64,000 nucleotides of DNA from Calditrichota bacterium (lineage in GTDB: Bacteria > Electryoneota > B3-LCP): assembly GCA_020051775.1 (NCBI GenBank), contig JAGVQJ010000141.1:853-64852 (forward strand). The letters are read 5' to 3'. The notes under the pieces are model-generated. The model saw only the letters and a program-made list of their open reading frames with translations. It was not told the origin of the DNA and ran no database searches. Positions 9,864 through 51,443 of this stretch are shown here, piece after piece. Position numbers and translations under genes: made by a program. Position 1 is the first letter of the stretch, and each line of letters begins with the position of its first letter.

Positions 9864-9928
9864 TACCCTTGCTAAGTTTTACGGGATACGTAAATCCACG
9901 GAGATTGTTGGCCGAAATTTCGGCTGAC

Positions 9929-41035: not shown

Positions 41036-41041
41036 AAGAAG

Positions 41042-41069
41042 TTATGAATTATGAGTTATGAGTTATGAA
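41042..41069. repeat. Left copy of a perfect 28-bp terminal inverted repeat (TTATGAATTATGAGTTATGAGTTATGAA)
   Basis: It is exactly the reverse complement of 42953-42980. It consists of four tandem heptamers, TTATGAA/TTATGAG, and starts 6 bp after the recG stop. Confidence 0.9.
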
Positions 41070-41346
41070 AACAATTGTCATCGCTGCACTATTCGGCACG
41101 TAGGGGTCGGGTTTGCCCCGAACCATTGATCCCCCCCTTCCCCCCTTGACAAGGGGGGTGACTGCAGGGTGAGGAAATCGTTGGATTACGCTTCGCTAAT
41201 CCAACCTACTTTACTGAATCACGCAGATTTCACTGATTACGCTGATTATTTACTCTTGTCTGAATCACAGATTCACGCAGATTAAGCAGATTGCGCGGAT
41301 TTTCATCTCCGAAGGGGATGAAAATCGAGCGCTACCGGCACGGATT

Positions 41347-42450
41347 GTGGGACAATTGAATTCAATCAATAGAATGAAGGAGAAGAAGATGCCAACTCCG
41401 CAAGAAAAGCAAATTCTAATCAATATTCAGAAAGATCTCGAGACTCTCGCATTGTATGACGATGGAAAAATGACTCGAAAGGATTTGGCACCTGAGTTAG
41501 AATTTTCATATGTTTCAATTTATATCCAACGATCCTTGGCAATATACAGAAAATTAAAAGATGCACCTCTTGAGTGCTTAGTTGAACAATCATTAAAGCA
41601 AGTTCAACAAAGAGTAGCTCAAGCGGCTGGTAGATATAAGGAGCTAGCAGAGTTTTCAATCGCTAAATATCCCGACAATGTAATGCAAAAGAGAAATAAC
41701 ATAATTCAAGCAATTGTGTCTGAATATTTTGAAGACATAAAGATTCTGCAACCTATAATTGATCTTCTTGTACCAATTGATTCCGAAATAATCAAAATCA
41801 CTAAGGAACAAAAAAAATCTTTGAAATCAATTGAAACAGAGAGATTAAATATTAAGAGTAAATCAGAAGAATTACAGAAAGAAATTGAATTGACTCTGAG
41901 TAACCTACAAAAGGAGAGTAACGAAGCATTGATGGCGGTACGCAGTATTGCTGGTGAGGCTGGAGTTTCTCACCATGCACAAATTTTTGCTCAACAAGCG
42001 AATCAGCATAAAAAGTACGCAAATATTTGGTTGAGTATTTCAGTGGCGGTACTTGTCCTTGCCGTATTTGCAATATCTTGGATTACGAAAACATACATAG
42101 AGGAAATAAAAGATCTAGATGAAATAATTAAGGTACTTCCAATCACAATATCTAGATTAGTCATGGTGACGATTTCTCTATATGCAGTATTGTGGAGCAC
42201 AAAGAATTATAATGCGCATCGACACAATGAAGTGATTAATCGCCATAGGCAAAATGCCTTAAGTACGTTTAAATCATTCGTAGAGGCGGCGAAAGATGAC
42301 CCAGCAACAAAGAATACAATTTTAATACAAGCTACTCAGTGTATTTTTTCTGTGCAAAGGTGTGGTTATTTAAAAGGCGATAGTGATTCAATGATGCCAA
42401 ATAATCTAATTAATATTCCATTGCCTGCATCTCCAAAATTAAAAGACTAA
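41347..42450 (+). CDS. Hypothetical protein: long coiled-coil N-terminal region followed by a two-TM helical hairpin and a short C-terminal domain (SLATT-like architecture)
   Basis: The ORF is AT-rich. Residues 1 to about 215 are K/E/Q-rich helical. The TM helices are IWLSISVAVLVLAVFAISWI and LVMVTISLYAVLWSTKNY. The C-terminus NAHRHNEVINRHRQNALSTFKSFVEAAKDD matches no known family that I recognise. Confidence 0.6.
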   Translation: MGQLNSINRMKEKKMPTPQEKQILINIQKDLETLALYDDGKMTRKDLAPELEFSYVSIYIQRSLAIYRKLKDAPLECLVEQSLKQVQQRVAQAAGRYKELAEFSIAKYPDNVMQKRNNIIQAIVSEYFEDIKILQPIIDLLVPIDSEIIKITKEQKKSLKSIETERLNIKSKSEELQKEIELTLSNLQKESNEALMAVRSIAGEAGVSHHAQIFAQQANQHKKYANIWLSISVAVLVLAVFAISWITKTYIEEIKDLDEIIKVLPITISRLVMVTISLYAVLWSTKNYNAHRHNEVINRHRQNALSTFKSFVEAAKDDPATKNTILIQATQCIFSVQRCGYLKGDSDSMMPNNLINIPLPASPKLKD

Positions 42451-42511
42451 ATACTGTGATTTTTCTTGTCTTTCAATCCGTCTCCGCGGTCGTGCAGGTT
42501 GGCGGGGATCT

Positions 42512-42536: not shown

Positions 42537-42600
42537 CCATTCAAGCTCATCCACTGCGGGGTTGATGAAGCGTCCACTTTAGTGGACTGAAAGAAGGTAG

Positions 42601-42620
42601 CCCGGGAATTCATTCCCGGG
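42601..42620. repeat. REP-like palindromic element copy E6
   Basis: CCCGGGAAT-tc-ATTCCCGGG is a 9-bp palindrome sharing the GGAAT/ATTCC core. Confidence 0.5.
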
Positions 42621-42642: not shown

Positions 42643-42858
42643 ATGCAAGTCTTCAAAACTTTTCTCATCCTCGGGAGCGTGTTCGGCGCCATCGGCGCGG
42701 CGATGGCGTATGTCATCATGTATCATGAGTATCTGGATCATTATCCGGACAAAAAGCAACCGCGCAAGATTGCCTTGGAGGCGGCGATCATCACCTTCTT
42801 GATCTTCTTTGGTTTGTCCGCCGGGTTTGGATATTTCCTGGCGCGGCTGCAAGGATAG
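42643..42858 (+). CDS. Small hypothetical membrane protein (two TM helices, 71 aa)
   Basis: The helices are FLILGSVFGAIGAAMAYVIM and AAIITFLIFFGLSAGFGYFLA. Its codon usage is GC-rich, unlike the neighbouring AT-rich gene. There is no obvious RBS. Confidence 0.4.
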   Translation: MQVFKTFLILGSVFGAIGAAMAYVIMYHEYLDHYPDKKQPRKIALEAAIITFLIFFGLSAGFGYFLARLQG

Positions 42859-42952
42859 GAAGTGAAATTTAATTGGAACATGCGGCAAGCAGTGACGCTT
42901 GCTCTACTAAATTGGGTCGGGGCATGCCCGAACCCTACGAGATGTTTTTTGA

Positions 42953-42980
42953 TTCATAACTCATAACTCATAATTCATAA
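42953..42980. repeat. Right copy of the perfect 28-bp terminal inverted repeat
   Basis: TTCATAACTCATAACTCATAATTCATAA is the reverse complement of 41042-41069. It ends 6 bp before the parA start codon. Confidence 0.9.
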
Positions 42981-42986
42981 TTCCTA

Positions 42987-48719: not shown

Positions 48720-51443
48720 ATGAACGAAATCCTTCGATTCCCACAAGAAATCCAGAAAGAAATCGAAGATCAGATTTCCGTTGAGTCATGGAAGAATAAA
48801 CCTGTCAAGCCGCTTGAATCTCCGGTCATGGCACTGCCACATACTGCAATCTACAAAATGCACCGGTATTATGCCCGCAGACCCTATAATGTATTTGATG
48901 AAATTATTCAACGATACACAAATCCTGGCGATTTAATTCTTGATCCTTTCTGTGGAGGCGGAGTAACCGTTGTGGAGGCCATGAAACTCCGGCGGCGGGT
49001 TATTGGCGTTGACTTGAATCCTCTGGCCACATGGATTACTCAAGTTGAAGTTGAGTCGGTAGATCTGAACGAATTGGACCAAGCTTTTACAATCTGGTTG
49101 GAGGCCGTACAAAAACAAATCAATCCGCTCTTCGAGGCAACCTGCGGCGCTTGTGGAAAGATAGGATCGGCGGAGTGGTTTGAGTGGTCAAATGTTGTCC
49201 GCTGCCCAAGTTGCGGGAAATCCAATATCTTAGGCAAATGCCAAAAGATTAGAGGAGGCCATTACCTCTGTACCAATAAGCGTTGCCAATCACTGATTGA
49301 AGCAGACAAGTGTGAACGACAACCGGATGAAATGCTCACCGCGTTGGTGAACTGCCCGCATTGCGGCGAAAGAAATATCCGCGATATTAATGCTGATGAC
49401 GCGGATCGAGTTAAACAGATTAAATCAAATTTTAATAGAATCGTAAAACAAGAAAAATTGAGTATCCCCGACGACGACTTCCCTGATATGAATTCGGTGC
49501 GGGAAAACAATCTCTTTGGCAAAGGCTTTCTGAAATTTAGAGATTACTTCACAACGAGGCATCTTCTCGCCATAGCAAGAATGAAATCATCCCTGCGTGA
49601 GTTGAAATCCGATAAGAGAACCATCAATTCTCTATATAATATATTTTCTGCGACTCTAAGATTTACAAACAAAATGGTCATTAGGAGCGAAGCGTGGCGT
49701 GGTGATAATCCACTCGAATGGCCAGGGCACATTTATTGGCCTCCTTATACATATCTCGAAGCAAACCCGGTTAAACCGCTTCTAAAACGGTATAAAGCTC
49801 AAGTTGCCGGTAAATTGGAGCAAAAGGAGAAAATAGGGGATTTCTGCCGATTCCCCAAGATTTATCGGCCCTGGGAGGATATGCAGAGCAGCGCCACCTG
49901 CTGGATCATCAACCAGTCCAGTCATGATTTACCCATACCTGATAAATCGGTGGATGCTGTGATTACCGATCCACCCTTTGGCGGCAATGTCCAATATGCC
50001 GAATTATCAGATTTTTACCTGGTGTGGCTAAAGGACTTTTTGAAGTTGCCCGATGGCGCCGGCAAAGAACAGGAGGCTATAGAAACTCGCCATCAAGGTT
50101 TTGATGGCGCGAAGGATCGTGATTTTTACGAGAATATGCTCTTTAAAATTTTCAAGGAATGCCGACGAGTAATCAAACCTGACGGCTGGATGGCGCTAAC
50201 TTTCCACAATCGTGATATCGGTGTTTGGATGTCCATGAATCGCGCAGCGATTAGGGCCGGTTTCAGGTTACCACCTGCATCAGAGTCTCTAAATCGCGGG
50301 ATGATTTACCAGCCTCCCATCCAAAATTACACCCAGACAATTCATCAAAAGCGCACTGGCTCTATGCTCGGTGATTTTGTCCTATCATTCCGACCGGTAG
50401 ATGAACCGGTGTACCTGGGACCGGTTCTGCAAGAATTACCCACGGAAGAGGAAAAAGGCATATATGCTAAAGCAGATGAGATCATCCGGTTTCATGGCGG
50501 CGCCGATGAAACGACCCTGATGACCGGGTTGCTACCCTATTTACAAGAAAAAGGGTTGCTGGCGCGATTAGCCAGATTCGATCTGCGTTCTCTGTTGAGT
50601 GGCGGACAATTTGTATTCCGCAAAGACCAGAAGAAGTGGTATGCGGCTGACATGATCGAACCATCTGGCGGCATTAAACCCATTGACGTTATTCAGGCTG
50701 AACATCTCGTGCAGGAGCTGATCTTTGAGTACCTTTTGGAACACAAACATGCCAGTAATGATGATCTATTACGGTTGGTTTATACCGCACTGGTTAATGC
50801 TCATAGACCGCAGATTGATGCTATTGAGAAGGTTCTGGGCAAGTACTGCAAGAGAATCAATGTGAAAGGTCAGAAAAGAGAACAATATCAATGGACAACA
50901 GGGGTGCCATCCCCTTTGAAAGTACAACAAGAAAAACAAAAACAGACAGACTTGATGATGGGCGAGAGTGTCTCTCCGACACACAATGGCATTATTTTTA
51001 CCATCGCACAAGAAGCGATTACAAAAGGATATTTCGCGCATGTCGGCGCGACGGAACAACGAAAAAACGGATCTCTGGATCACGTCAGTCTCAAACTCAC
51101 TTATCATGAATTGGGAGTGCCTAAAAAGGCGTTTGATATCATTCGTCAAATTGACTTGCTGTTACTGAAGGAATATTCAGTAATTGCAGCCATTGAAGTT
51201 GTAACCAGCCTCAGTACGCTTAACAAGGCGGTTAATGACCGTTTCAGGAATCTACTTAGCGTAATTCCTAACTTAAATTTCAGGTTGTACATCGTCGTCA
51301 ACGATGAAGATTTCATGGCGGCACGCGCAGAAATACATTCACCGGTAAATCAACGTGAAGGTTTGGCAGACCGCATAAGACTCCTCAAGGTGTCTGAAGT
51401 AACCGAGGGAAAAATCACAACGTATTGGCCTTTCCAAGAGTAG
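48720..51443 (+). CDS. DUF1156/COG1743-family adenine-specific DNA methyltransferase with Zn-ribbon; solitary
   Basis: The N-terminal motif HRYYARRP matches the HxWWARRP signature. Motif I is DPFCGGGVTVVEA...VIGVDLNP. The Zn-ribbons are CGACGK...CPSCGK and CTNKRC...CPHCGE. Catalytic motif IV is ITDPPFGGNVQY. The protein is 907 aa. The gene is AT-richer than its flanks. Its ATG follows the upstream TGA by 1 nt. Confidence 0.8.
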   Translation: MNEILRFPQEIQKEIEDQISVESWKNKPVKPLESPVMALPHTAIYKMHRYYARRPYNVFDEIIQRYTNPGDLILDPFCGGGVTVVEAMKLRRRVIGVDLNPLATWITQVEVESVDLNELDQAFTIWLEAVQKQINPLFEATCGACGKIGSAEWFEWSNVVRCPSCGKSNILGKCQKIRGGHYLCTNKRCQSLIEADKCERQPDEMLTALVNCPHCGERNIRDINADDADRVKQIKSNFNRIVKQEKLSIPDDDFPDMNSVRENNLFGKGFLKFRDYFTTRHLLAIARMKSSLRELKSDKRTINSLYNIFSATLRFTNKMVIRSEAWRGDNPLEWPGHIYWPPYTYLEANPVKPLLKRYKAQVAGKLEQKEKIGDFCRFPKIYRPWEDMQSSATCWIINQSSHDLPIPDKSVDAVITDPPFGGNVQYAELSDFYLVWLKDFLKLPDGAGKEQEAIETRHQGFDGAKDRDFYENMLFKIFKECRRVIKPDGWMALTFHNRDIGVWMSMNRAAIRAGFRLPPASESLNRGMIYQPPIQNYTQTIHQKRTGSMLGDFVLSFRPVDEPVYLGPVLQELPTEEEKGIYAKADEIIRFHGGADETTLMTGLLPYLQEKGLLARLARFDLRSLLSGGQFVFRKDQKKWYAADMIEPSGGIKPIDVIQAEHLVQELIFEYLLEHKHASNDDLLRLVYTALVNAHRPQIDAIEKVLGKYCKRINVKGQKREQYQWTTGVPSPLKVQQEKQKQTDLMMGESVSPTHNGIIFTIAQEAITKGYFAHVGATEQRKNGSLDHVSLKLTYHELGVPKKAFDIIRQIDLLLLKEYSVIAAIEVVTSLSTLNKAVNDRFRNLLSVIPNLNFRLYIVVNDEDFMAARAEIHSPVNQREGLADRIRLLKVSEVTEGKITTYWPFQE

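What the first reader, a model, noticed from the sequence alone, without database searches (positions are those of the whole stretch)
41347..42450. Cassette cargo: coiled-coil + two-TM-hairpin protein with SLATT-like architecture, a candidate membrane-disrupting effector
The 367-aa product has about 215 aa of K/E/Q-rich helix, then two closely spaced TM helices and a short conserved-looking basic tail (NAHRHNEVINRHRQNALSTF). This layout resembles 2TM effector domains (SLATT-like) used by abortive-infection and conflict systems. The gene has strongly atypical AT-rich codon usage. It is followed by a second small 2TM ORF at 42643-42858 with host-like GC, which could be an immunity or partner protein, or could be unrelated. 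No sensor or NTase partner is present, so if it is defensive it works as a stand-alone module or in trans.
Basis: inference. Interest (0 to 1): 0.6.

Follow-up and report, generated by a model that had tools for sequence, protein, structure and literature searches.

The report
Foreign two-pass membrane protein, likely anti-phage
A recently acquired, AT-rich gene between recG and parA encodes a two-pass membrane protein of a large, unnamed and unstudied family; relatives often sit among phage-defence genes, so it is a plausible but untested stand-alone anti-phage protein, and it is not a SLATT protein.

Summary
The ORF is real, but its true start is the ATG at 41389, giving 353 aa rather than 367. 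GC3 is 0.28 against 0.72-0.76 in the neighbouring genes, so the gene is foreign DNA. The predicted protein has a confident N-terminal four-helix bundle, an ~80-aa stalk helix, a two-TM hairpin, and a C-terminal cytoplasmic region. That C-terminal region is the best-conserved part of the family (HNxVINRHRQNAL...ATQCIF...TGY).

The family is large, about 5,000 clusters at 50% identity, and spans many phyla. It has no Pfam or PADLOC model. Its closest known families are DUF6161 (below threshold) and the lactococcal abortive-infection protein AbiZ (weak HMM hits from some relatives only). No SLATT signal was found by sequence, and only non-significant structural matches.

In 82 homologous loci the gene has lower GC than its flanks and has no conserved partner gene. 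Relatives often lie beside restriction-modification systems, Gabija, toxin-antitoxin genes or ATPase genes. A Vibrio plasmid copy sits in an integron cassette array rich in defence genes.

The 71-aa ORF is a conserved host gene upstream of parA, not a partner. My best reading, at moderate confidence, is a stand-alone membrane-acting abortive-infection-type protein.

The parts
41389..42450 (+). CDS of the 353-aa two-pass membrane protein, with the corrected start; the stop codon is 42448-42450
   Evidence: ORF list. The database copy P0001 is 353 aa. Homologue N-termini align to this Met. The protein matches the family profile end to end, positions 7-339 of 342.
41377..41382 (+). Shine-Dalgarno-like AAGGAG, 6 nt upstream of the ATG at 41389
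   Evidence: Read directly from the sequence.
41389..41769 (+). N-terminal cytoplasmic four-helix bundle (residues 1-127), the candidate sensor or interaction domain
   Evidence: AF2 model of the domain alone has pLDDT 94.7 and pTM 0.86. No significant PDB fold match; best E is 0.5. Conserved positions are R30, F39, F89 and R102. A Piscirickettsia plasmid relative has an unrelated N-terminus in its place.
41776..42024 (+). Long stalk helix (residues 130-212), K/E/Q-rich. Its membrane-proximal end carries the conserved GVxQHAxxF...W segment.
   Evidence: AF2 predicts one helix over 130-242. Conservation is from the alignment.
42025..42087 (+). TM helix 1 (residues 213-233, IWLSISVAVLVLAVFAISWIT)
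   Evidence: Kyte-Doolittle maximum 2.4 and invariant W214.
42136..42198 (+). TM helix 2 (residues 250-270, LPITISRLVMVTISLYAVLWS), which follows a 16-aa acidic external loop
   Evidence: Kyte-Doolittle about 1.8-1.9. Loop charge is -2 and flanking charges are +2/+3, which fits N-in/C-in.
42199..42384 (+). Conserved C-terminal cytoplasmic region (residues 271-332), with the motif Y..H(R)HN.VINRHRQNAL.TF..F...ATQCIF...GY. This is the family signature and the candidate effector or oligomerisation core.
   Evidence: Invariant H279, N284, L291, F320 and G326; at least 90% conservation at H286, R287, Q288 and N289. The 2TM + C-terminal module alone is shared with a Piscirickettsia plasmid protein at hhalign probability 97.7%.
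41330..42498 (.). Approximate extent of the acquired low-GC DNA
   Evidence: GC profile. Homology to the related contig L216 resumes at window 42499. The left edge is judged from composition only.
42643..42858 (+). 71-aa two-TM ORF. It is a conserved host gene upstream of parA and is NOT part of the module.
   Evidence: Homologues at 76-81% identity. It is always followed by parA-parB. GC3 is 0.71. It is absent beside the other 81 family members.
41037..41125 (.). Left composite repeat: (TTATGAG)n heptamers at 41037-41069 plus a GC-rich hairpin at 41099-41125. It is an inverted copy of the element upstream of parA.
   Evidence: Inverted repeats I1 (33 nt, 94%) and I5 (27 nt, 85%). The repeat is unique within the window.
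42913..42985 (.). Right composite repeat: hairpin at 42913-42939 plus heptamers at 42953-42985, ending 1 nt before the parA ATG. This is an ancestral host feature, not a mobile-element end.
   Evidence: Related contigs L216 and L217 also carry heptamer arrays directly before the parA ATG, with different heptamers; L217 also has the hairpin.

Best explanation
The gene encodes a horizontally acquired, stand-alone inner-membrane protein. It belongs to a large uncharacterised family that is related to DUF6161 and possibly, distantly, to AbiZ.

Shown or predicted from sequence:
- The N-terminal four-helix bundle and an ~80-aa stalk helix lie in the cytoplasm.
- A helical hairpin crosses the membrane twice.
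- A conserved His/Arg/Asn/Gln-rich helix follows TM2. It probably packs back against the conserved segment that precedes TM1, just under the membrane.

Inferred mechanism:
- The protein is a single-gene abortive-infection-type defence protein.
- The 2TM + C-terminal module, which is conserved across the family, is the effector. The N-terminal domain, which differs in at least one distant relative, senses a phage-derived cue.
- On triggering, the protein oligomerises or changes conformation and compromises the cytoplasmic membrane. This could mean loss of membrane potential, or premature lysis in cooperation with the phage holin, as proposed for AbiZ. Either way the infection aborts before progeny are complete.
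- It needs no partner gene.
For: Foreign origin:
- GC is 35% against about 54% in the flanks, and GC3 is 0.28 against 0.72-0.76.
- In a related contig the same site holds a different AT-rich ORF plus the end of a transposase-like ORF (my reading of its C-terminal sequence), so the site is an insertion hotspot.

Real, large, patchily distributed family:
- 4,994 clusters at 50% identity reach E<=1e-3, and 2,322 reach E<=1e-30.
- Homologous loci come from more than 15 phyla.

Accessory-gene signature across 82 loci:
- Gene GC is a median 9 points below the flanks. It is more than 5 points lower in 60 of 74 loci and never more than 5 points higher.
- No conserved neighbour exists.

Defence neighbourhoods:
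- Type I R-M genes lie beside or around the gene in L016, L025, L026, L040, L048 and L073.
- Gabija plus a KAP NTPase.
- Type II R-M.
- An AAA_15/AAA_21 ATPase.
- Type III R-M.
- A PIN/Phd toxin-antitoxin pair.
- A Vibrio tubiashii plasmid integron cassette array carrying Hhe, HEPN-associated, AbiH, GIY-YIG and KAP genes.
- Immediate neighbours hit 376 PADLOC models, against 84 for genes at least 7 positions away.

Links to known families:
- DUF6161 aligns over nearly its whole profile (13-214 of 216) at E 1e-4.
- A language-model study singled out a DUF6161 family as a predicted defence family (bioRxiv 10.1101/2025.01.08.631966).
- 6 of 39 relatives hit the PADLOC AbiZ model colinearly, at E down to 1.9e-5.
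- AbiZ causes premature lysis together with the phage holin (PMC13064643, PMC6356687).

Modularity:
- The 2TM + C-terminal module is shared with a protein that has a different N-terminus.

Intactness:
- The gene is full length and all family-invariant residues are present.
Against: - No experiment exists for any member of this family.
- The window protein itself hits no PADLOC model.
- It is below the Pfam threshold for DUF6161: 21.5-22.3 bits against 27.
- The AbiZ hits come mainly from one subclade. They stop at the end of TM2, so they miss the family's signature motif, and they could partly reflect helical/TM composition. I could not obtain the AbiZ sequence for a direct profile comparison.
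- Several loci are lone insertions among housekeeping genes with no defence neighbour, as is the case here.
- The near-versus-far PADLOC comparison counts models, not proteins, and is dominated by methyltransferases.
- No pore-forming or lytic fold was recognised.
- Membrane disruption is inferred from architecture and analogy only.
Confidence: 0.45

Rival explanations
1. It is a SLATT-family 2TM effector. It would be a pore-forming domain normally driven by nucleotide signals from a SMODS/CD-NTase, SLOG or TIR partner, here working alone or in trans.
For: Both have two closely spaced TM helices with flanking cytoplasmic helices. A few giant-virus SLATT proteins appear among weak structural matches, with TM-scores of 0.2-0.4 over 130-170 columns.
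Against: No SLATT_1-6 or DUF4231 hit appeared even at E<=10 for this protein. None appeared among 39 relatives at E<=0.01. The structural matches have E 0.46-2.4, which is noise for helical hairpins. No nucleotide-signal-generating partner recurs in 82 loci. The family's own signature motif has no SLATT counterpart in any search.
Confidence: 0.04
2. It is a two-gene toxin/immunity or effector/partner pair with the downstream 71-aa 2TM ORF.
For: The two are adjacent on the same strand and both are membrane proteins.
Against: The 71-aa ORF has host-like codon usage, with GC3 0.71 against 0.28. Its homologues at 76-81% identity always sit upstream of parA-parB. One such related contig, L216, lacks the big gene; the other is truncated just upstream. 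No similar small ORF accompanies any of the other 81 family members.
Confidence: 0.02
3. It is an accessory membrane protein with a non-defence role, carried by mobile DNA. Possible roles are membrane remodelling or stress protection (PspA- or dynamin-stalk-like), entry or superinfection exclusion for a mobile element, or a selfish addiction-type gene.
For: 10 of 39 relatives give weak hits to the helical/TM region of the dynamin-like LeoBC model, with best E 2.7e-7. Two hit LeoA, and one hits PspA_IM30 at E 0.004. Many loci have no defence neighbour. A few copies are in viral contigs, and one structural homologue is in a siphovirus metagenome. Copies occur on IS-rich plasmids.
Against: There is no GTPase domain and no sequence or fold match to solved dynamin-like proteins or PspA. 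The LeoA/LeoBC hits fall in coiled-coil stalk regions, where spurious similarity is common; JetC coiled coils also appear at E about 1e-3. Only 4 loci turned up in 2.9 million viral contigs, so the gene is not mainly a phage or prophage gene. Enrichment of R-M and defence neighbours fits defence better.
Confidence: 0.3
4. It is a housekeeping coiled-coil membrane protein, such as a chemoreceptor, a cell-division protein or a sensor-kinase fragment, that merely looks atypical.
For: It lies between core genes, recG and parA-parB. It is all-helical with a long stalk.
Against: Codon usage is extremely foreign. No chemoreceptor, HAMP, histidine-kinase or division-family hit appeared. A related contig holds different foreign DNA at this site. 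Homologues occupy unrelated sites in every genome.
Confidence: 0.03

Closest known systems
Pfam DUF6161 (PF19658), a family of unknown function
   Same: The best and only consistent Pfam match. It aligns almost end to end with the profile (positions 13-214 of 216), covering the stalk end, both TM helices and the conserved C-terminal region. A 2025 language-model study flagged a DUF6161 family as a predicted antiphage family with no homology to known defence proteins.
   Different: Scores are 21.5-23.8 bits against a gathering threshold of 27. Only 3 of 39 relatives reach E<=0.01. It is therefore at best a sister family. DUF6161 itself has no known function, and the N-terminal four-helix bundle lies outside the profile.
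AbiZ, the Lactococcus lactis pTR2030 abortive-infection protein (PADLOC model PDLC02354)
   Same: AbiZ is a single-gene defence protein of about 400 aa. As I recall from the Durmaz & Klaenhammer 2007 abstract, which I could not access here, it has two predicted TM helices. 6 of 39 relatives hit the AbiZ model colinearly, profile positions 133-337 of 398, at E 1.9e-5 to 6e-3. The AbiZ structure also has no PDB fold match (PMC13064643). AbiZ acts at the membrane with the phage holin to cause premature lysis.
   Different: The window protein itself does not hit the model. The hits end at TM2 and omit the HNxVINRHRQNAL signature. tblastn found no lactococcal plasmid match. Homology is unverified.
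SLATT 2TM effector domains (Pfam SLATT_1-6, DUF4231) of CBASS and other conflict systems
   Same: Both have a two-TM hairpin with cytoplasmic helical flanks, and both are suspected to act on the membrane.
   Different: No sequence signal at all. Structural matches are non-significant. There is no associated nucleotide-signalling partner. This protein has a large N-terminal domain and a family-specific C-terminal motif.
Integron gene cassettes encoding phage defence (for example 'Mobile Integrons Encode Phage Defense Systems', bioRxiv 10.1101/2024.07.02.601719)
   Same: A homologue on Vibrio tubiashii plasmid pFP31 lies in an array of attC-type repeats about 125-138 nt long. The array also carries Hhe, AbiH, HEPN-associated, GIY-YIG and KAP genes.
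   Different: The window copy has no attC-like repeats. Its flanking inverted repeat is host intergenic sequence. I did not search the window for an integrase.

Membership tests
SLATT (Pfam SLATT_1-6 / DUF4231) | Significant match to a SLATT or DUF4231 profile | tested here: not met
   No such family was listed at E<=10 for the protein. None appeared among 39 relatives at E<=0.01.
SLATT (Pfam SLATT_1-6 / DUF4231) | Genomic association with a SMODS/CD-NTase, SLOG, TIR or similar signalling partner | tested here: not met
   No neighbour family recurs in more than 4 of 82 loci. No such domain is among the 25 commonest neighbour families that the scan lists. None lies within about 6 kb in the window.
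SLATT (Pfam SLATT_1-6 / DUF4231) | Structural similarity of the 2TM region | tested here: inconclusive
DUF6161 (PF19658) | Score at or above the Pfam gathering threshold of 27 bits | tested here: not met
   Scores are 21.5 and 22.3 bits for the window protein and 23.8 bits for the Vibrio homologue. Alignment covers profile positions 13-214 of 216. The family is related but sub-threshold.
AbiZ (PADLOC PDLC02354) | Significant match to the AbiZ profile | tested here: inconclusive
   The window protein has no hit. 6 of 39 relatives hit at E 1.9e-5 to 6e-3 over profile positions 133-337 of 398. The AbiZ sequence was not obtainable for profile-profile comparison.
AbiZ (PADLOC PDLC02354) | Phage-dependent premature lysis, with enhanced permeability in the presence of holin | not testable with these tools
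   This is an experimental phenotype, described.
Bacterial dynamin-like proteins (LeoA / LeoBC) | Dynamin-type GTPase domain | tested here: not met
   No GTPase or dynamin family appeared in the Pfam or NCBIfam scans. There is no sequence match to solved dynamin-like proteins. Only the helical/TM region of the PADLOC LeoBC and LeoA models is hit, by 10 and 2 relatives respectively.
Integron gene cassette | The gene is bounded by attC recombination sites in direct orientation, in an array | tested here: not met
   In the window, only inverted host repeats flank the region. The feature is met for the Vibrio plasmid homologue, which has 7-10 attC-like repeats with TAAC...GTTA ends.
Toxin-immunity pair with the 71-aa ORF | Conserved adjacency of the two genes | tested here: not met
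   The 71-aa ORF is conserved with parA-parB. One related contig shows it without the big gene. It is absent from the other 81 loci.
This unnamed family (alignment A1) | Full-length match, including 2 TM helices and the invariant residues F200, W214, H279, N284, L291, F320 and G326 | tested here: met
   E 5e-100 to the family profile over positions 7-339 of 342. All invariant columns are present.

The most novel reading that the evidence does not exclude
The gene represents a widespread, so far unrecognised class of single-gene membrane defence proteins, with about 5,000 sequence clusters across most bacterial phyla. The class would be built from a conserved '2TM + HNxVINRHRQNAL' juxtamembrane effector module and exchangeable N-terminal sensor domains. 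AbiZ and DUF6161 would be distant cousins. If so, an AbiZ-like 'lysis-clock' or membrane-collapse mechanism would be common well beyond Lactococcus, and this module would be a new effector type alongside SLATT and other 2TM effectors.
Probability: 0.3. Interest if true: 0.65.

Novelty: new variant of a known kind. Interest (0 to 1): 0.45.

Why it matters
Single-gene membrane-acting abortive-infection proteins are poorly understood. AbiZ has had no recognised relatives or domains for almost 20 years.

If this family is confirmed as defensive, it would be a large new set of stand-alone membrane effectors found across phyla. Its clear, mutable signature motif and a compact candidate sensor domain make mechanism studies tractable. 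It would also give function to a large block of 'hypothetical proteins' that no current Pfam or PADLOC model covers.

If it is not defensive, it is still a marker of recent horizontal insertion at a chromosomal hotspot next to parAB.

Tried and rejected
1. SLATT, DUF4231 or other Abi Pfam families: no hits.
2. PADLOC, NCBIfam and PHROGs on the window protein: nothing meaningful.
3. Foldseek against PDB, with the full model and with the N-terminal domain alone: nothing below E 0.2. The top hits are axonemal coiled coils and generic four-helix bundles. The NRG1 CC-R and MLKL hits at E 0.5-2 are not significant and I do not rely on them.
5. PDB sequence search with the family profile: only coiled-coil noise.
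6. Attempts to obtain the AbiZ sequence for a direct comparison all failed. The original paper is not held. tblastn of the best AbiZ-hitting relative against plasmids found only the Vibrio homologue. No supplements are held.
7. A profile search for named or Pfam-annotated relatives returned only unnamed proteins without Pfam domains.
8. The idea that the 33-nt inverted repeats are terminal repeats of a mobile cassette: rejected. The heptamer repeat is common in metagenomes, and related contigs have heptamer arrays, and in one case the hairpin, in front of parA.
9. Rfam and promoter/terminator scans of the flanks: nothing above chance or threshold.
10. The exact-protein contig lookup for P0001 failed, so the source organism remains unidentified.
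Full report
**1. Observation**

The ORF at 41347-42450 (+) exists. GC drops to 34-36% across it, in a window that runs at about 52-60%. Its GC3 is 0.28, against 0.72 for recG, 0.76 for parA and 0.71 for the 71-aa ORF.

The ATG at 41389 is preceded by AAGGAG at 41377-41382. The public copy of the protein (P0001) is 353 aa. All homologues align from that methionine.

Kyte-Doolittle analysis finds exactly two hydrophobic segments, at residues 213-233 and 250-270. The 16-aa loop between them is acidic and both outer flanks are basic, which fits an N-in/C-in hairpin.

It is the most conserved part of the protein: H279 and N284 are invariant, and H286, R287, Q288 and N289 are conserved in at least 90% of sequences.

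**2. Anatomy**

AlphaFold2 with the 39-sequence alignment gives mean pLDDT 86.9. The predicted parts are:
- a compact N-terminal bundle, residues 1-127;
- one very long helix, residues 130-242, that runs from the cytoplasm through TM1;
- a tight turn;
- a second long helix, residues 246-300, that contains TM2 and the conserved motif;
- a short helix, residues 305-320;
- a disordered tail.

Modelled alone, the N-terminal domain is a confident four-helix bundle (pLDDT 94.7, pTM 0.86).

So the '215 aa of K/E/Q helix' is really a globular domain plus an ~80-residue stalk. The 'short tail' is a conserved cytoplasmic region of 60-80 aa. That region probably packs against the conserved pre-TM1 segment (GVxQHAxxF...W) just under the membrane. 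The packing is my inference from the helical hairpin.

**3. Family**

- A word-indexed search found 39 homologues of about 340 aa at 23-34% identity. All are unnamed and none has a Pfam domain.
- An exhaustive HMM search with their alignment found 4,994 clusters at 50% identity with E<=1e-3, and 2,322 with E<=1e-30.
- A pattern-limited scan of one genome per species returned 109 loci. They come from Acidobacteriota, Bacteroidota, Planctomycetota, Nitrospirota, Verrucomicrobiota, all proteobacterial classes, Clostridia, Acidimicrobiia, Leptospira, Elusimicrobia, Poribacteria, a Paceibacterota MAG and others.
- Only 4 loci were found in 2.9 million viral contigs. No phage GenBank record matched. 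One siphovirus metagenome protein is a structural and sequence homologue, at Foldseek E 7.6e-9.

This is a large, patchily distributed, mainly cellular family.

**4. Known families**

*Pfam.* The only consistent match is DUF6161. It covers profile positions 13-214 of 216 but scores 21.5-23.8 bits against a threshold of 27. Only 3 of 39 relatives reach E<=0.01.

*SLATT.* No SLATT or DUF4231 hit appeared at any threshold.

*PADLOC.* The window protein has no hit. However:
- 6 of 39 relatives match AbiZ colinearly, over profile positions 133-337 of 398, with best E 1.9e-5;
- 10 of 39 match LeoBC, with best E 2.7e-7;
- 2 match LeoA.

The Leo hits lie in helical stalk regions. JetC coiled coils also appear at E about 1e-3, so I treat the Leo hits as probably compositional. 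There is no GTPase domain and no match to solved dynamin-like proteins.

The AbiZ hits are more interesting for three reasons. AbiZ is a single-gene Abi protein of about 400 aa. As I recall from the abstract of Durmaz & Klaenhammer 2007, which I could not access here, it has two predicted TM helices. [quoted passage not shown] On the other side, the hits come mostly from one subclade and stop at TM2, and I could not obtain the AbiZ sequence to test the link.

*Structure and PDB sequence searches.* Nothing significant was found. SLATT proteins of giant viruses appear only at E 0.46-2.4.

*Literature.* A 2025 preprint lists a DUF6161 family as a language-model-predicted defence family without homology to known systems.

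**5. Genomic context of the family**

Across 82 loci, the gene's GC is a median 9 points below its flanks. It is more than 5 points lower in 60 of 74 loci longer than 6 kb, and in no locus is it more than 5 points higher.

All-against-all clustering of neighbouring ORFs shows no conserved partner. The commonest neighbouring cluster occurs in 4 of 82 loci.

The recurring neighbours are type I R-M subunits. hsdM, hsdS and hsdR lie beside or around the gene in L016, L025, L026, L040, L048 and L073. N6_Mtase and HsdM_N are among the most frequent Pfam families in immediate neighbours, alongside integrases, IS200 transposases and HTH proteins. Many housekeeping genes are there too.

Immediate neighbours hit 376 PADLOC models at E<=1e-5, against 84 for an equal-sized sample of genes at least 7 positions away. 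This is a rough measure and is dominated by methyltransferases.

Eight loci were examined with annotation:

| Locus | Neighbours |
|---|---|
| L203 | Endonuclease_NS, then the gene, then Gabija (GajA/GajB) and a KAP NTPase |
| L204 | Type II R-M |
| L205 / L206 | Divergent AAA_15/AAA_21 ATPase, in two contigs |
| L209 | 5'-nucleotidase plus type III R-M, on the same strand |
| L210 | PIN/Phd toxin-antitoxin pair |
| L207 | Lone insertion among housekeeping genes |
| L211 | Lone insertion among housekeeping genes |
| L001 (Vibrio tubiashii plasmid pFP31) | Integron cassette array, see below |

In the Vibrio plasmid, the homologue (23.5% identity, E 8e-17) lies in an array of attC-type repeats 125-138 nt long. 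The same array holds Hhe, a HEPN-associated protein, AbiH, a GIY-YIG nuclease and P-loop/KAP genes. Integron cassettes are documented carriers of phage defence (bioRxiv 10.1101/2024.07.02.601719).

A Piscirickettsia plasmid protein, flanked by IS elements, shares only the 2TM + C-terminal module (hhalign probability 97.7%) and has a different N-terminus. This suggests a conserved effector module with exchangeable N-terminal domains.

**6. This locus**

Upstream is recG, with DEAD, Helicase_C and RecG_wedge domains. Downstream are parA and parB, then a methyltransferase, a C69 peptidase, an FKBP and an aldolase. There is no NTase, no sensor and no recognised defence gene within about 6 kb. A low-GC 907-aa DNA-methylase fusion lies at 48720-51443.

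The 71-aa ORF has homologues at 76-81% identity in related metagenomic contigs, where it directly precedes parA-parB. In contig L216 the position upstream of it holds a different AT-rich 122-aa ORF and the C-terminal end of what reads as a transposase gene. Nucleotide homology to the window resumes at 42499.

The site is therefore an insertion hotspot. The acquired DNA spans roughly 41330-42498, and the 71-aa ORF is a host gene, not a partner.

The 33-nt (94%) and 27-nt (85%) inverted repeats at 41037-41125 and 42913-42985 are real and unique in the window. They are not ends of a mobile cassette, for two reasons:
- Heptamer arrays directly precede the parA ATG in both related contigs, with different heptamers, and L217 also has the GC-rich hairpin.
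- The heptamer itself is common in metagenomes.

Rfam and promoter/terminator scans of the flanks gave nothing above threshold or chance.

**7. Interpretation**

Shown:
- The gene is foreign, intact and stand-alone.
- It encodes a two-pass membrane protein.
- It belongs to a large mobile family with no functional annotation.

Well supported:
- The family behaves like an accessory, defence-island-associated gene family.

Inferred:
- It is a single-gene abortive-infection-type protein. Its 2TM + juxtamembrane module damages membrane integrity when the cytoplasmic N-terminal domain or stalk detects a phage cue, possibly in cooperation with holins as proposed for AbiZ.

I put about 0.45 on this. 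I put about 0.3 on a non-defence accessory membrane role, and very little on SLATT membership, a pair with the 71-aa ORF, or a housekeeping role.

**8. Novelty and score**

The gene is a new, divergent member of an uncharacterised family; its closest known relative is 34% identical. At best the family is a remote cousin of AbiZ and DUF6161. The kind of system, a single-gene membrane Abi, is known. The family, its signature motif and its breadth are not described, to my knowledge and in the literature I could search. Interest is moderate, at 0.45: there is a solid candidate and clear experiments, but no functional evidence yet.

Noticed in passing
window 41037-41125 and 42913-42985; L216:1090-1136; L217:395-440: A composite element, made of a tandem heptamer array plus a GC-rich hairpin, sits directly before the parA start codon in this genome and in related contigs. 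The heptamer sequence differs in each: ACTCATA here, CTAACGA in L216 and AACTCGA in L217. A second, inverted copy follows the recG stop codon here. Its function is unknown; it could be a leader, an operator or a repeat element.
   Followed up: partly
window 42569-42620; L217:301-352: A 52-nt module of two hairpins (GTCCACTTTAGTGGAC ... CCCGGGAATTCATTCCCGGG) is 92% identical in a related contig but sits on the other side of the 71-aa gene. This suggests a small mobile hairpin element. It overlaps a sub-threshold Rfam hit to Acido-Lenti-1 (25 bits against 37, E 0.005).
   Followed up: partly
window 48720-51443: A second low-GC stretch (40-48% GC) encodes a 907-aa protein with an N-terminal N6_N4 DNA-methylase domain. 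Distantly similar methylase fusions (24-33% identity) lie immediately downstream of family members in L018 and L034.
   Followed up: partly
L216:1-520: In a related organism, the site upstream of the 71-aa gene carries the end of a transposase-like ORF and a different AT-rich 122-aa ORF. The region upstream of the 71-aa gene and parA therefore looks like a recurrent insertion hotspot.
   Followed up: partly
L001:9566-11928 (Vibrio tubiashii pFP31): The integron cassette holding the homologue appears to carry three ORFs between intact attC sites: a 99-aa ORF, the homologue and a GIY-YIG nuclease. A degenerate attC-like piece lies at 9888-9927. A 5'-nucleotidase gene lies two cassettes upstream, and a 5'-nucleotidase also directly follows the family member in L209.
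   Followed up: no
P0034, P0036, P0037 (alignment A1 columns 1-140): Three relatives of 446-472 aa carry an extra N-terminal region of about 100 aa with no detected family, which further suggests that N-terminal domains are exchangeable.
   Followed up: no
window 41126-41330: The stretch between recG and the foreign gene is packed with short repeats typical of some environmental genomes. It has a C-rich palindrome (CCCCCCTTGACAAGGGGGG), a GTTGGATTACGCTTCGCTAATCCAAC hairpin that is also present, inverted, in L216, and two 35-nt copies of a CACGCAGATT-type repeat.
   Followed up: no
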